Positions 7,833 to 17,455 of a stretch of 45,700 nucleotides of DNA are shown here, piece by piece. Below the pieces are notes generated by a model that was given only the letters and a program-made list of their open reading frames with translations, searched no databases and had not been told where the DNA came from. Position 1 is the first letter of the stretch; every line of letters begins with the position of its first letter. The position numbers were made by a program, and so were the translations under genes. This DNA is from a virus (taxonomy: Duplodnaviria > Heunggongvirae > Uroviricota > Caudoviricetes), in the IMG/VR virus record IMGVR_UViG_2563366840_000010, positions 1-45,700 of that record. One strand, 5' to 3'.

Positions 7833-9236
7833 TTATTGACGATTAAAGTAGTTAGAGTTTAGCTCTTTAGGGAAGTAGTGTTTACGATTTACCCAAACAA
7901 ATCCATCAACTTTTGATATCACAGCGACATCAACAGGCCCACCGACAGTTTCATAATCATGTGATACTTTTCTTTTGAATGCAGTGATGTTCACTAATGA
8001 TTCGGCCATATACGCAAGATCTGCCTTCCCAAGTGATTGCAACATCGATATCATTTTATTTGTATGGTTATTAACAATATAGCTTTCAAGTTTAGTATCG
8101 TGATCTTGTAAAAGTACGTTTTTGAGTTCCTCAATTTCACTGGAGAAGTGATTGGCTAGTACTCCATTGTTCATTGCAGGGAAAATATTGCTAGAAACAT
8201 AATGATTAAGCCGATCAAAAACTTCCTCTGTAAGAGTTCTGTTAAAATTAATGATGTTAGGGTTGCACCCATCAATGAAAGTTACTACTTCATCTTCTTG
8301 AGCAAATGGTATAACAAACCCCATATTGGTTACCTCATTATGGGATTTATCATCAATATTATGGATCATCAATTTGTTTTTAAAAATGCCGTAGATATGA
8401 AGAGTGCAAATGGAAGGGTAATATTCTTCCTCTCCATAACCTGTTATAACAATCCCTGAATATGTACGACTAGCATGGACTTTGAAAATTAAACAAGTGG
8501 AATATAATATGACTTTTTCCATAAGCTCTTGCTGTATATTTTCACAGTTATCAAGAACAATAATTGATGAAATGTATGGCGATATTAAATCTTGTATATA
8601 TGCTAAAGCATCATTAAACTCTTCTGTATCAAACCCTTCGAAAAAGAGATTATTCCTTAAGATTCCTATCTCTAAATCAAAGGCTTGCTTAACTATGTTT
8701 TGAAAAATAACATTGTCGAGTTCAACGGCGGGGTTCATTGTTAAATAGTTTACTACATTATTATCATTAATGTATCTCATCAAACCTTTGAGGTTATCAA
8801 CAACAAGGTTTATAACGCAAGCCTCTCTCATTTCATTTGTTATAAGGTCTGAGTTACCATTGATGAATTTTACAAAGTCATTAACATATTCTTTAATGGT
8901 AGGGAAACTAGTTTTCCCCAATTGTTTTCTATAGGATTTAATTATAAGTTCCCACGGTGCGCCACCCAGTGTCGCATTATTATAAATCATGATCCCCACG
9001 GGATGGTGTTTAGATAGTTCGAATAGTTTTTCCGCACTATTATTTATTTTTACTAATCTATTATGCTCTGTGGTGACTGCAGAGTCAGCAGCAAGGGCGA
9101 TTCCAGTATTATTTATTACAACAATCTCAGCTGTCATTGCAAAACATCCCGTGTAGTAGTGATAAATATTAATTAAATTGATAGTTTTTTTCAATCTAAC
9201 ATAAATGGCGGAATCACCCCCCAGTAAAGACATCAT
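7833..9236 (-). CDS. AT-rich accessory (moron) protein with proteasome-beta/HslV-like motifs; likely true start at 9137 (434 aa)
   Basis: Long ORF co-oriented with and 43 bp downstream of the repressor gene; visibly AT-rich; internal start gives MTAEIVVINNTGIALAADSAVTT; C-terminal VGGPVDVAVISKVDGFVWV. Confidence 0.7.
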   Translation of the reverse strand: MMSLLGGDSAIYVRLKKTINLINIYHYYTGCFAMTAEIVVINNTGIALAADSAVTTEHNRLVKINNSAEKLFELSKHHPVGIMIYNNATLGGAPWELIIKSYRKQLGKTSFPTIKEYVNDFVKFINGNSDLITNEMREACVINLVVDNLKGLMRYINDNNVVNYLTMNPAVELDNVIFQNIVKQAFDLEIGILRNNLFFEGFDTEEFNDALAYIQDLISPYISSIIVLDNCENIQQELMEKVILYSTCLIFKVHASRTYSGIVITGYGEEEYYPSICTLHIYGIFKNKLMIHNIDDKSHNEVTNMGFVIPFAQEDEVVTFIDGCNPNIINFNRTLTEEVFDRLNHYVSSNIFPAMNNGVLANHFSSEIEELKNVLLQDHDTKLESYIVNNHTNKMISMLQSLGKADLAYMAESLVNITAFKRKVSHDYETVGGPVDVAVISKVDGFVWVNRKHYFPKELNSNYFNRQ

Positions 9237-9994: not shown

Positions 9995-10552
9995 ATGCAA
10001 ACACTTTCTTTTCAACAGAATAACAGAGCGCCATCAGAGCACCTGAAATTCCAGTATCAACACAGTGAGGCTGAAGGCCAGCCGGTCGATCACCGGGCTA
10101 TCTGTTCTGCCGTCCGCGCCTGGGCGGCGGCAGAGGGCCGCGTGGCGGTCGCTCTGGCGATTAAAGAGGCTGCCGAACAGGCCGAGCTTGACAGCATTGA
10201 CATGACCGGCAGCGCCGATGTGTGGAACGTGAAGCTGTTTCGCTGGCTGGACAACCACGAGAAATCACCGGCCTACCGGGCGAACGTCGAGCAGCTGGCG
10301 CCGGTAATAATTTCGGTTCTGCCGCTGGCGTACCGGGATCGCGTGATTAAGCACGACTGCTTTGCGGTTCGTGTCGCCAGGTCGGTGAAAGAAGACGCTG
10401 AGGCGATACAGGCTGTCGTCCTCAAAGCCCCCAGACACGAACGGATGAAGGAAATCAGCGAGAGCATCGTAGCCAAGCTCTACCTGGACGGACCTGATTC
10501 TGTGGCGCCCATTATGGCGATGGTTACAACGATGCTGGGTGGTGCGCTATGA
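9995..10552 (+). CDS. YdaT-like / CII-position regulatory protein (185 aa)
   Basis: Follows the cro-like gene with AGGAG RBS; segment FRWLDNHEKSP..LAPVIISVLPLAYRDRV resembles Rac YdaT from memory. Confidence 0.6.
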   Translation: MQTLSFQQNNRAPSEHLKFQYQHSEAEGQPVDHRAICSAVRAWAAAEGRVAVALAIKEAAEQAELDSIDMTGSADVWNVKLFRWLDNHEKSPAYRANVEQLAPVIISVLPLAYRDRVIKHDCFAVRVARSVKEDAEAIQAVVLKAPRHERMKEISESIVAKLYLDGPDSVAPIMAMVTTMLGGAL

Positions 10553-10636
10553 CGGGCTCAGAAATGGCGAAAGCCGCGGTGCTCGAACACCAACGGCTTT
10601 CAGGTGCAAAAACTGTGCGTAATTGCGGAGAACAGT

Positions 10637-11545
10637 ATGTCAAATACCGCTGAAATAATCAATTTCCCAAATAAAACCGAACAACCGGGAGGTCGTATGG
10701 CCGACCTGTCGAACGGGTATACCAAGGTCGCTAACGAGATCCAACAGCTTAAGCCTCGCCTGAGACTGTCAGGCCGGGAATGGCAATGTTTTGAGGCGGT
10801 GATCTGGCTTACCTACGGCTGGAACAAGAAACAGGACCGCGTGACAAATACGGTTATTGCCGAGCTTACGGGCCTGAGCGATACGCATGTATCGGACGCG
10901 CTTAAGTCTCTCGCAGAACGCAAAATCATCTTTTCACAGAAGCAGGGCATGATGAAAATCGTCGGTGTAAACACTGACCTTTCAGCATGGATTTTAGACA
11001 AACCGGAAACGGGAAGAAAATTCCCGAAAACGGGAAAATCCTTCCCGAAATCAGGAATAACCTTCCCGAAAACGGTAGACACCCAATACAAGAACAAGAA
11101 CAGTATTAAAAGATCTTCGTCCGAGAATTCTGACGAATCCTCTGACGCACGTCTGAAGAAATTTTTATCAACTCATCCTGAAGCTGCGGTCTACACACCA
11201 TCCGGTGCGAAGTGGGGCTCTGCTGAAGACCTCGAGACAGCTAAGTGGATTTCCTCCAGGGTGAAGCTGATTAACCCAACCTGCAAAGCCCCGGACATGA
11301 CCTCCTGGTCTAACACTGTTCGCCTGATGCGCCAGATAGACAACCGGTCGCACCAGGACATCTGCGCGCTGTATGACTGGGCTAGCAAACACCACTTCTG
11401 GCAGACCAACATCCTGAGTCCCGAAAGCCTGCGTAAGCAGTGGGACAAGCTGACAATGCAGCGTAACGCCGGAGGTGAGCAGCGCGCTGTCAAGCCAGAT
11501 CTGGACTTCAACAACACTGACTGGGCCTATGGGGTGATCCGATGA
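10637..11545 (+). CDS. O: replication initiator, lambda O-like (302 aa)
   Basis: N-terminus MSNTAEIINFPN parallels lambda O MTNTAKILNF; GGAGAA RBS; iterons inside the gene. Confidence 0.8.
   Translation: MSNTAEIINFPNKTEQPGGRMADLSNGYTKVANEIQQLKPRLRLSGREWQCFEAVIWLTYGWNKKQDRVTNTVIAELTGLSDTHVSDALKSLAERKIIFSQKQGMMKIVGVNTDLSAWILDKPETGRKFPKTGKSFPKSGITFPKTVDTQYKNKNSIKRSSSENSDESSDARLKKFLSTHPEAAVYTPSGAKWGSAEDLETAKWISSRVKLINPTCKAPDMTSWSNTVRLMRQIDNRSHQDICALYDWASKHHFWQTNILSPESLRKQWDKLTMQRNAGGEQRAVKPDLDFNNTDWAYGVIR
11003..11075. repeat. origin iterons: four copies of TTCCCGAAAACGGGAA-like inverted-repeat units at ~20 bp spacing, followed by an A/T-rich tract
   Basis: Seen directly at 11004..11017, 11021..11038, 11041..11057, 11061..11075; encodes the GRKFPKTGKSFPKSGITFPKT protein repeat. 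Confidence 0.65.
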
Positions 11546-12231
11546 AATCTCTTGCAGAGCAGATGCGTAACCACGACCGCGAGCAGATGAGCCGCATGGC
11601 CCATAACCTGCCAGAGCAGTACCAGGAGTGCGCGCCGGTCGAGCAGGTGGCGCAGGTATTCAACAAGCTGTTCAACGAGCTGCGCGCCGCGTTCCCGGCC
11701 AGCATGGCGAACTTCCGCACCCAGGAAGACCTGAACGAATTCCGCCGTCAGTGGCTGCTGGCGTTTCAGGAGAACGGGATCCACACCATGGCTCAGGTCG
11801 ATGCCGGCATGCGCATTGCCCGCCGCCAGGAGCGCCCATTCCTGCCGTCGCCGGGCCAGTTCGTCGCCTGGTGCAAGCAGAGCGGCGGCGCGCTGGGCGT
11901 CAACGTTGACCAGGTGATCGCCGAATACTGGGACTGGCGTAACCGCTCGTTCGAATTCATCTCCAGCGAGCAATTTCCATGGTCGCAGCCGGTCATGTAC
12001 CACATTTGCGTAGAATTGCGCCACCGCAGCACCGAGCGCCAGTTAACGCATGGTGAACTGGCACGCGAGGCAGGCGATCTGCTGGACATGTGGGAAAGGC
12101 GCGTCACCGAGGGTAAGCCAGTGCCGCCGGTACGCCGGGCTATTGCCGCACCAGCTGCCGAGCAAGGGCCGACGCCGATCCAGCTGCTGCTGGCCAAGTA
12201 CAACCGCAACAAGTCGAACGGGATGGTGTGA
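11542..12231 (+). CDS. P: replication protein P-like helicase loader (229 aa)
   Basis: Start overlaps O stop; position and size as lambda P. Confidence 0.7.
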   Translation: MKSLAEQMRNHDREQMSRMAHNLPEQYQECAPVEQVAQVFNKLFNELRAAFPASMANFRTQEDLNEFRRQWLLAFQENGIHTMAQVDAGMRIARRQERPFLPSPGQFVAWCKQSGGALGVNVDQVIAEYWDWRNRSFEFISSEQFPWSQPVMYHICVELRHRSTERQLTHGELAREAGDLLDMWERRVTEGKPVPPVRRAIAAPAAEQGPTPIQLLLAKYNRNKSNGMV

Positions 12232-13188: not shown

Positions 13189-13206
13189 AATGCAATGGGG
13201 GCCATT

Positions 13207-13440
13207 ATGAAAGTTGAATTAACCATTGATCGCATGAAAGAACTTCCTAAAGGCGCAGTACCAGCACTGGAGAAAGAACTGCTTAAGCGCCTGAATGATC
13301 ACTATGACAATTGCAGGCTCACAATCCGCCGTGCCGGGGCCGATGGGTTAAGTGTTTTTGGTGGTGACAAGGACGATAAAAAGAAAATTGAATCAATCCT
13401 CCAGGATACCTGGGAAAGCGCTGACGACTGGTTTTATTAG
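13207..13440 (+). CDS. dinI: DinI-like SOS-inducible protein (77 aa)
   Basis: MKVELTIDR...ILQDTWESADDWFY closely parallels E. coli DinI including the WESADDWF C-terminus. Confidence 0.85.
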   Translation: MKVELTIDRMKELPKGAVPALEKELLKRLNDHYDNCRLTIRRAGADGLSVFGGDKDDKKKIESILQDTWESADDWFY

Positions 13441-16443: not shown

Positions 16444-16518
16444 GGGTCAGTCGTATAAAGGTCATTACGGAAGGCTGTTAACCTTCTTATCGTGGTTCGA
16501 GTCCACGCTGTCCCGCCA
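16444..16518 (+). tRNA. tRNA-Asn (anticodon GTT), phage-encoded
   Basis: Hand-folded cloverleaf: acceptor stem with one T-T mismatch, D-loop with GG, anticodon stem GAAGG/CCTTC and loop CTGTTAA, T-arm CGTGG-TTCGAGT-CCACG, discriminator G, CCA. Confidence 0.55.
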
Positions 16519-16980: not shown

Positions 16981-17397
16981 GCTGCGCGTCAGAGGTTCGA
17001 TTCCTTTGCCCGCTCCAGTAAAAGCTTTCCAGTCTGCGATGATGGGTTCCCCGGAGTGACTGGAAAGCGACCTGGTTTTGAATGGGCGCTGCTTTTTGCA
17101 AAATTGCTGTGTGAAAATACTGACCTTTGGGTTCAGCGCTCATCCAAAAGCATCACGTGAATTCACCAACGCTCATGTACTCTCCAGGAAACAATAAGTG
17201 ATTCTGAAAAGTTCCGGTTAGATATTGCCCCGGTCACCGGATGATTTTATCTTTTGGTTCGTGGTGAATCCCCCTATGCGGCGGGGCGTCCAGTCAAACT
17301 TTTTTGTCCAGGTTTGTTTGCGCGGAACTAGTCGGCTGGGGCTGTTCCACCGGGAGGCACCCGGCGCCACCTCCTTGACGGTATTGTTATTTTTCAT

Positions 17398-17424
17398 GCC
17401 TGTTCGTCCGAGCAGGCTTTTTTT
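17398..17424 (+). terminator. intrinsic terminator (GCCTG-ttcgtccgag-CAGGC + T7)
   Basis: Seen directly; no convincing plus-strand CDS upstream. Confidence 0.6.
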
Positions 17425-17455
17425 GCCCGCATTATCTTCATTGAAAACTGGCAAC

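What the first reader, a model, noticed from the sequence alone, without database searches (positions are those of the whole stretch)
11003..11115. Replication origin iterons embedded in the O-like gene
Four TTCCCGAAAACGGGAA-like units at ~20-bp spacing, followed by an A/T-rich stretch, lie inside the O coding sequence, as in lambda ori.
Basis: partly seen in the sequence, partly recalled or inferred. Interest (0 to 1): 0.4.

Follow-up and report, generated by a model that had tools for sequence, protein, structure and literature searches.

The report
Phage phi80-type replication origin

Summary
Confirmed and already known. Window 11000-11078 holds four dyad-symmetric 16-bp units (consensus TTCCCGAAAACGGGAA) in exact 21-bp register. 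A 38-bp stretch follows (11079-11116, 68% A+T, A-rich on the + strand), then a conserved imperfect palindrome (11116-11146). All of this lies in the linker-coding middle of an O-type initiator gene (10637-11545, Pfam Phage_rep_O), which is followed by a lambda-P-type helicase-loader gene (11542-12231). The 241 bp around the array are 100% identical to phage phi80 and mEp237. In the phi80 GenBank record (JX871397) these same four units are annotated as gp15 binding sites. The array aligns unit for unit with the four annotated iterons, AT-rich tract and palindrome of lambda ori. In 27 related prophages from about 18 enterobacterial genera all four units are kept while the 5-nt spacers vary. All 9 four-fold-degenerate codon positions inside the units are invariant, against 7 of 32 in the flanking coding sequence (p = 3e-5). 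The constraint is therefore on the DNA, not on the encoded peptide. The most likely mechanism is the lambda one: initiator dimers bind the iterons, the AT-rich tract opens, and P delivers DnaB. Nothing departs from the known system, so interest is low.

The parts
10637..11545 (+). Initiator gene, the O analogue (phi80 gene 15 homologue, 302 aa). The ORF lister's GTG start at 10604 is probably not the one used.
   Evidence: Pfam Phage_rep_O at 6e-25 and PHROG 277 at 3e-122. 99.7% DNA identity to phi80 gene 15, mEp237 and HK225 O. The phi80 and mEp237 records annotate a 909-nt CDS. 39% amino-acid identity to lambda O.
11000..11015 (.). Iteron 1, AAACCGGAAACGGGAA, with a degenerate outer (left) half-site
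   Evidence: In 21-bp register with the other units. Corresponds to phi80 protein_bind 'gp15' 36663-36677, which maps to window 11001-11015. Kept in all 27 relatives.
11021..11036 (.). Iteron 2, TTCCCGAAAACGGGAA, a perfect 6+4+6 dyad
   Evidence: Corresponds to phi80 protein_bind 'gp15' 36683-36698. Conserved in relatives.
11042..11057 (.). Iteron 3, TTCCCGAAATCAGGAA
   Evidence: Corresponds to phi80 protein_bind 'gp15' 36704-36719. Conserved in relatives.
11063..11078 (.). Iteron 4, TTCCCGAAAACGGTAG, with a degenerate outer (right) half-site
   Evidence: Corresponds to phi80 protein_bind 'gp15' 36725-36739. Nearly invariant in relatives.
11079..11116 (.). A+T-rich, A-skewed tract; inferred DNA-unwinding element
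   Evidence: 68% A+T, with 20 A against 6 T. Least stable 40-bp window in the gene and top 2% of the whole window. Aligns with the lambda AT-rich tract. Highly conserved in relatives.
11116..11146 (.). Conserved right arm: imperfect palindrome TTCGTC-CG-AGAATTCT-GACGAA plus TCCTCTGAC. It is also the junction between the exchangeable halves of the module.
   Evidence: 31 bp exactly shared with several lambda-like phages (H19-H25). Aligns with lambda at 29 of 31 positions. Homology to PHB10 and Meifeng ends at 11140-11146, and homology to the Klebsiella phages begins at 11085. Hairpin potential as single-stranded DNA is not significant (z = -1.4).
11542..12231 (+). Helicase-loader gene, the lambda P analogue (phi80 gene 14 homologue, 229 aa); its start overlaps the stop of the initiator gene
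   Evidence: Pfam Phage_lambda_P at 2e-49 and PHROG 109 'P-like helicase loader' at 2e-84. 47% identity to lambda P.

Best explanation
This is the phi80-type lambdoid origin of replication, embedded in the linker-coding middle of the initiator gene. Transcription from the early rightward promoter makes the initiator (O/gp15) and the loader (P/gp14).

The inferred steps, taken from the lambda system, are:
1. Dimers of the initiator's N-terminal winged-helix domain bind the four dyad-symmetric iterons.
2. The iterons stand exactly two helical turns apart, on one face of the DNA, and the bound dimers assemble into a wrapped 'O-some'.
3. The strain in the O-some opens the adjacent A+T-rich tract.
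4. The initiator's C-terminal domain recruits the P-DnaB complex.
5. Host chaperones release DnaB, and bidirectional theta replication starts.

Shown here: the anatomy, the identity to phi80 ori, the homology of the two proteins, and DNA-level purifying selection on the iterons. Inferred from lambda and phi80 work: initiator binding, unwinding, DnaB loading, and actual origin firing in this element.
For: 1. Four units lie in exact 21-bp register, far beyond chance.
2. The array lies between the N- and C-terminal halves of a Phage_rep_O protein, followed by a Phage_lambda_P protein.
3. Window 10960-11200 is 100% identical to phi80 and mEp237. The phi80 record JX871397 annotates the four units as gp15 protein-binding sites.
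4. The region aligns one-to-one with lambda's four annotated ori iterons, AT-rich tract and palindrome.
5. All 27 prophage relatives, from about 18 genera, keep four units in register, and variation is concentrated in the 5-nt spacers.
6. Four-fold-degenerate sites are invariant at 9 of 9 positions inside the iterons, against 7 of 32 in the N-domain coding sequence (Fisher p = 3e-5).
7. The Morganella and Photobacterium relatives carry the symmetric change TTACCG..CGGTAA in their units, as expected for a dimer on a dyad site.
8. The AT-rich tract is the duplex-stability minimum of the gene.
9. The lambda mechanism is taken from PMC5043065, PMC6022878 and PMC7466680.
Against: Nothing in the sequence argues against this reading. 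The limits are these. No experiment was done on this element. Protein-DNA binding is taken from a database annotation and from the lambda literature, not measured here. The window may be a resident prophage whose origin is intact but currently unused. The relatives used for the conservation test share ancestry, so the p-value overstates independence.
Confidence: 0.93

Rival explanations
1. The 21-nt repeat is only a coding tandem repeat. It would encode a heptad peptide repeat (FPKTGKS / FPKSGIT / FPKTVDT) in the flexible linker of the initiator, with no cis-acting role in the DNA.
For: 21 nt is 7 codons and the array is in frame. The encoded peptide is visibly repetitive.
Against: The peptide itself varies among relatives (K/E, T/S, S/V/T/L, F/L/S), whereas the four-fold-degenerate third positions of the cores never vary: 9 of 9 against 7 of 32 in the flanking sequence, p = 3e-5. 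Each unit is a DNA dyad, which coding does not require. The sequence is identical to the annotated phi80 gp15 sites. In lambda, in-frame deletions in the corresponding region are cis-acting ori mutations, and some of them leave O able to complement (PMC6022878).
Confidence: 0.02
2. The sites do bind the initiator, but in this element they serve only as a relic or as a titration/exclusion device. This would be an intact-looking origin in a defective prophage, or ectopic iterons that silence incoming phages of the same replication type, rather than a firing origin.
For: The same ori sequence sits in 126 of 5426 complete E. coli chromosomes, including the DH5alpha phi80 remnant. In lambda, iteron-carrying plasmids inhibit replication of rep-lambda phages (PMC3349717). 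One relative (Kluyvera, L022) has a frameshifting 20-nt unit, so decay does occur.
Against: Here the O and P frames are intact and overlap as in phi80. The whole origin, including the AT-rich tract and right arm, is 100% identical to that of viable phages phi80 and mEp237. The window resembles complete phage genomes over long stretches.
Confidence: 0.04
3. The dyads act as RNA or DNA hairpins, for example a minus-strand intrinsic terminator, rather than as protein-binding sites.
For: Iteron 2 read on the minus strand scores as a terminator-like hairpin followed by a T run.
Against: Only one of the four units scores, and the count in the region (2) is close to the shuffled expectation (1.2). 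The stems are only 6 bp. The exact 21-bp phasing and the half-site conservation fit protein binding on one DNA face. The palindromic right arm does not fold better than shuffles (z = -1.4).
Confidence: 0.01

Closest known systems
Origin of phage phi80 (gp15 binding sites within gene 15; GenBank JX871397 and X13065). The same origin is present in phages mEp237 and HK225.
   Same: Identical sequence over window 10960-11200. The four units are the four annotated gp15 protein_bind features. The initiator gene is 99.7% identical and the same gene-14 (P-like) gene lies downstream.
   Different: Nothing differs within the origin. The surrounding phage is a different mosaic: only 14% of the first 25 kb of the window matches phi80, against 45% for mEp237. 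The immunity region and the leader upstream of 10627 also differ from phi80.
Origin of phage lambda (ori-lambda: iterons ITN1-4, AT-rich tract, palindrome, inside gene O)
   Same: Same position in the middle of the initiator gene. Same architecture: four dyad iterons, an AT-rich tract of about 38-40 bp with A-rich strand bias, and an EcoRI-centred palindrome (29 of 31 identical). The O (39%) and P (47%) proteins are homologous. An oop-like antisense element lies upstream.
   Different: The iteron sequence differs: TTCCCG-N4-CGGGAA here against ATCCCTCAAAACGAGGGA-type 18-19-mers in lambda. Spacing is a regular 21, 21, 21 bp here against 20, 24, 23 bp in lambda. The N-terminal domains are divergent, which fits a different origin specificity.
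Origins of Stx phages (933W, P27)
   Same: Same lambdoid design and the same O/P proteins (PMC7466680).
   Different: Those origins carry six lambda-type iterons. This one has four phi80-type iterons.

Membership tests
Lambdoid phage origin (ori-lambda type) | Origin lies inside the initiator (O) gene, between the regions coding its DNA-binding N-domain and its P-binding C-domain | tested here: met
   The array at 11000-11146 corresponds to codons 122-170 of the 302-codon gene. The Phage_rep_O domain ends just before it (aa 31-129 of the 313-aa ORF). C-half PHROG matches start at about aa 133-150.
Lambdoid phage origin (ori-lambda type) | Four or more dyad-symmetric iterons of about 16-19 bp, spaced about two helical turns apart | tested here: met
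   Four units at 21-bp spacing. Unit 2 is a perfect 6+4+6 dyad.
Lambdoid phage origin (ori-lambda type) | AT-rich tract of about 40 bp immediately to the right of the last iteron | tested here: met
   Window 11079-11116 is 68% A+T and is the duplex-stability minimum of the gene. It aligns with the lambda tract.
Lambdoid phage origin (ori-lambda type) | Conserved palindromic right arm | tested here: met
   Window 11116-11146 is 31 of 31 identical to lambda-like phages and 29 of 31 identical to lambda.
Lambdoid phage origin (ori-lambda type) | Cognate O-family initiator and P-family helicase loader encoded in cis | tested here: met
   Pfam PF04492 and PF06992 above their cut-offs. PHROGs 277 and 109.
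Lambdoid phage origin (ori-lambda type) | Initiator binds the iterons specifically | not testable with these tools
   Rests only on the annotation in the phi80 record and on the lambda literature. Indirect support comes from DNA-level conservation and dyad covariation.
Lambdoid phage origin (ori-lambda type) | Fragment supports O/P-dependent replication, and cis-acting ori mutations map to it | not testable with these tools
   Needs an experiment.
phi80 origin-specificity type | Sequence identity of the iterons and of the initiator N-domain with phi80 | tested here: met
   100% identity over 241 bp of origin. 99.7% identity over the gene.

The most novel reading that the evidence does not exclude
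The only mildly new reading left open comes from the relatives, not from the window. In the Morganella and Photobacterium relatives every iteron carries the symmetric change TTACCG..CGGTAA. This co-occurs with three substitutions (S to N, D to N, Q to R) in and just after the predicted recognition helix of the initiator. This could mark a naturally diverged origin-specificity subtype that would pinpoint the base-contacting residues of O-family initiators, for which a sequence search of the PDB found no homologue. Alternatively, the iteron-encoded heptad peptide might have a function of its own in the linker.
Probability: 0.12. Interest if true: 0.25.

Novelty: already known. Interest (0 to 1): 0.07.

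Why it matters
It matters mainly for annotation. The window carries the replication module of a phi80/mEp237-type lambdoid phage, and its origin can be placed to the base. The result also shows that the first-stage reader can recognise an origin embedded in a gene from sequence alone. The comparative data add a small point: across about 18 enterobacterial genera the iterons are held fixed at synonymous sites while the encoded linker peptide drifts. This is a clean example of a cis-acting DNA element constraining a coding sequence. No open question is advanced.

Tried and rejected
- **phi80 genome paper.** Rotman et al. 2012 (J Bacteriol 194:6802, PMC3510586) is not held in the library. The gp15-site assignment therefore rests on the GenBank features alone.
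- **Solved structures.** A PDB sequence search with the initiator gave only a marginal HTH match (E = 0.009) and no O-family structure.
- **Rfam.** No family matched the origin or the oop-like region.
- **Promoters and terminators.** The promoter scan of 10400-11300 found nothing. The terminator-like hit on iteron 2 was judged a by-product of a dyad next to an A tract.
- **Palindrome folding.** As single-stranded DNA the right-arm palindrome folds no better than shuffles (z = -1.4), so no cruciform claim is made.
- **Consensus count.** The plain count of the consensus with up to 3 mismatches is only weakly significant on its own (2 of 100 shuffles reach 3 hits). The exact 21-bp register carries the signal.
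- **Rivals.** The coding-repeat-only and hairpin readings were considered and rejected, as set out under the rival explanations.

Full report
**Observation**

Window 11000-11078 contains four 16-bp units at exact 21-bp spacing:
- AAACCGGAAACGGGAA at 11000
- TTCCCGAAAACGGGAA at 11021
- TTCCCGAAATCAGGAA at 11042
- TTCCCGAAAACGGTAG at 11063

Tandem Repeats Finder reports a 21-bp period, 3.5 copies, 78% matches and no indels. The repeat finder gives spacings of 21 and 21 and several inverted repeats that reflect the dyad symmetry of each unit. The consensus with up to 3 mismatches occurs nowhere else in the 45.7-kb window (3 hits against 0.35 expected). Four CCG-N4-CRG cores lie in exact 21-bp register, and none of 500 shuffles gave a run longer than 2.

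The following 38 bp (11079-11116) are 68% A+T, with 20 A and 6 T on the + strand. They form the least stable 40-bp duplex window in the gene and rank in the top 2% of the whole window. The spacing is 21 bp rather than about 20, and the first unit is degenerate in its outer half.

**Context**

The array lies in an ORF whose product matches Pfam Phage_rep_O (E = 6e-25) and PHROG 277 'replication initiation O-like' (E = 3e-122). The next ORF, whose start overlaps that ORF's stop, matches Phage_lambda_P (E = 2e-49) and PHROG 109 'P-like helicase loader'. Upstream lie a repressor gene, a Cro-like gene (YdaS type) and a CII-position gene (YdaT type). This is the standard lambdoid early-right operon. 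The proteins are 39% (O) and 47% (P) identical to those of lambda.

**Identity**

The initiator gene is 99.7% identical to gene 15 of phage phi80 and to the O genes of mEp237 and HK225. Window 10960-11200 is 100% identical to phi80 and mEp237. The phi80 genome record JX871397 carries four protein_bind features labelled gp15. With the offset taken from the alignment they map to window 11001-11015, 11021-11036, 11042-11057 and 11063-11077, which are exactly the four units.

The lambda record annotates four 'ori iteron' sites inside O. In the alignment these, the lambda AT-rich tract and the EcoRI-centred palindrome line up with the corresponding parts of the window. The right arm at 11116-11146 is identical over 31 bp to several lambda-like phages (H19-H25).

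The same origin sequence is present in 126 of 5426 complete E. coli genomes, including DH5alpha, which carries a phi80 remnant. As a whole the window is a mosaic closest to mEp237 and HK225.

**Independent comparative test**

A scan of one genome per species found 27 loci encoding relatives of the initiator N-domain (77-99% identity). They come from Enterobacter, Citrobacter, Kluyvera, Klebsiella, Pantoea, Pectobacterium, Morganella, Xenorhabdus and other genera.

All 27 loci carry four units in the same register. Variation is concentrated in the 5-nt spacers and the central 4 nt, while the TTCCCG and CGGGAA half-sites are nearly fixed.

In 18 sequences that align without gaps, all 9 four-fold-degenerate codon positions inside the iterons are invariant. 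In the N-domain coding sequence only 7 of 32 are invariant, with mean diversity 0.35 (Fisher p = 3e-5). Meanwhile the encoded linker peptide does vary. The constraint is therefore on the DNA and not on the peptide. This rules out the reading that the array is merely a coding repeat. The sequences share ancestry, so the p-value is an upper bound on the strength of the evidence.

The Morganella and Photobacterium relatives carry TTACCG..CGGTAA in their units, a change mirrored across the dyad, as expected for a dimeric binder. It co-occurs with S to N, D to N and Q to R substitutions in and just after the predicted recognition helix. This is one lineage and so one event.

**Modularity**

Homology to phages PHB10 and Meifeng covers only the N-half plus the origin and ends at 11140-11146. 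Homology to several Klebsiella phages covers only the C-half and starts at 11085. The conserved AT-rich tract and palindrome thus act as the junction between an 'N-domain + iterons' module and a 'C-domain + P' module. This matches the classical picture that the N-terminus of O recognises ori and the C-terminus recognises P. PMC6022878 summarises that picture and cites Furth and Yates 1978 on lambda-phi80 hybrids.

**Mechanism**

The mechanism is inferred from lambda (PMC5043065, PMC6022878, PMC7466680):
1. Initiator dimers bind each iteron.
2. The four dimers, two helical turns apart, form an O-some that bends and strains the DNA.
3. The adjacent AT-rich tract opens.
4. The C-domain of the initiator recruits P-DnaB.
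5. Chaperones release the helicase.

Shown here are the anatomy, the identity with phi80, the protein homologies and DNA-level selection. Binding, unwinding and firing are not shown.

**Prior knowledge**

The comparative sequence analysis of lambdoid origins is Grosschedl and Hobom 1979 (Nature 277:621) and Moore et al. 1979 (CSH Symp 43:155); both citations were verified. That these papers included phi80 rests on my own recollection. The X13065 record gives the phi80 early region with genes 15 and 14.

**Verdict**

The finding is real, correctly interpreted and already known. Nothing about the origin in this window departs from phi80.

Noticed in passing
window 10553-10636, minus strand (hairpin about 10569-10601): An oop / M3-RNA-like antisense element lies in the gap between the CII-position gene and the initiator gene. 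A TTGACA hexamer overlaps the initiator start codon on the minus strand. A strong hairpin (GAAAGCCG...CGGCTTTC) follows; the 86-nt segment containing it folds at -28.4 kcal/mol (z = -2.6). The arrangement parallels the phi80 M3 RNA and lambda oop regions. There was no Rfam hit.
   Followed up: partly
L031 (Morganella morganii) about 1375-1460 and L033 (Photobacterium indicum contig) about 230-315: The inner iteron half-sites read TTACCG..CGGTAA or a close variant instead of TTCCCG..CGGGAA, and one left half in L033 keeps TTCCCG. This co-occurs with S to N, D to N and Q to R changes in and just after the predicted HTH recognition helix of the initiator (GLNDTHVSNA...FSRKQG). It may be a natural specificity variant.
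   Followed up: partly
L022 (Kluyvera genomosp. 3), second iteron unit: The unit is 20 nt instead of 21, which frameshifts the initiator gene. This is probably a decaying prophage or a sequencing error.
   Followed up: no
window 7833-9236, minus strand: A 467-aa ORF lies directly downstream of the repressor gene, the position held by rexAB in lambda. It has no Pfam or PADLOC match and matches only PHROG 5990, of unknown function (E = 3e-178). It is a candidate lysogen-expressed accessory or exclusion gene.
   Followed up: partly
window 16444-16515 (+) and 17236-17428 (+): A tRNA gene and a match to the sRNA family STnc100 (RF02076, 71.7 bits) lie in the late-regulatory part of the phage.
   Followed up: no
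window 13195-13440 (+): A DinI-like protein gene (Pfam PF06183, E = 4e-26) lies in the nin-region equivalent.
   Followed up: no
window 29574-29672: A 27-nt-period tandem repeat of about 3.4 copies, rich in GAT and GAC codons (consensus unit GAAGATGACGAGCGCGACGATGATGCC). Whether it lies in a gene, and in which frame, was not checked.
   Followed up: no
window 11021-11036, minus strand: Iteron 2 read on the minus strand, together with the adjacent T run, scores as an intrinsic-terminator-like site. This was judged a by-product of dyad symmetry next to an A tract.
   Followed up: yes
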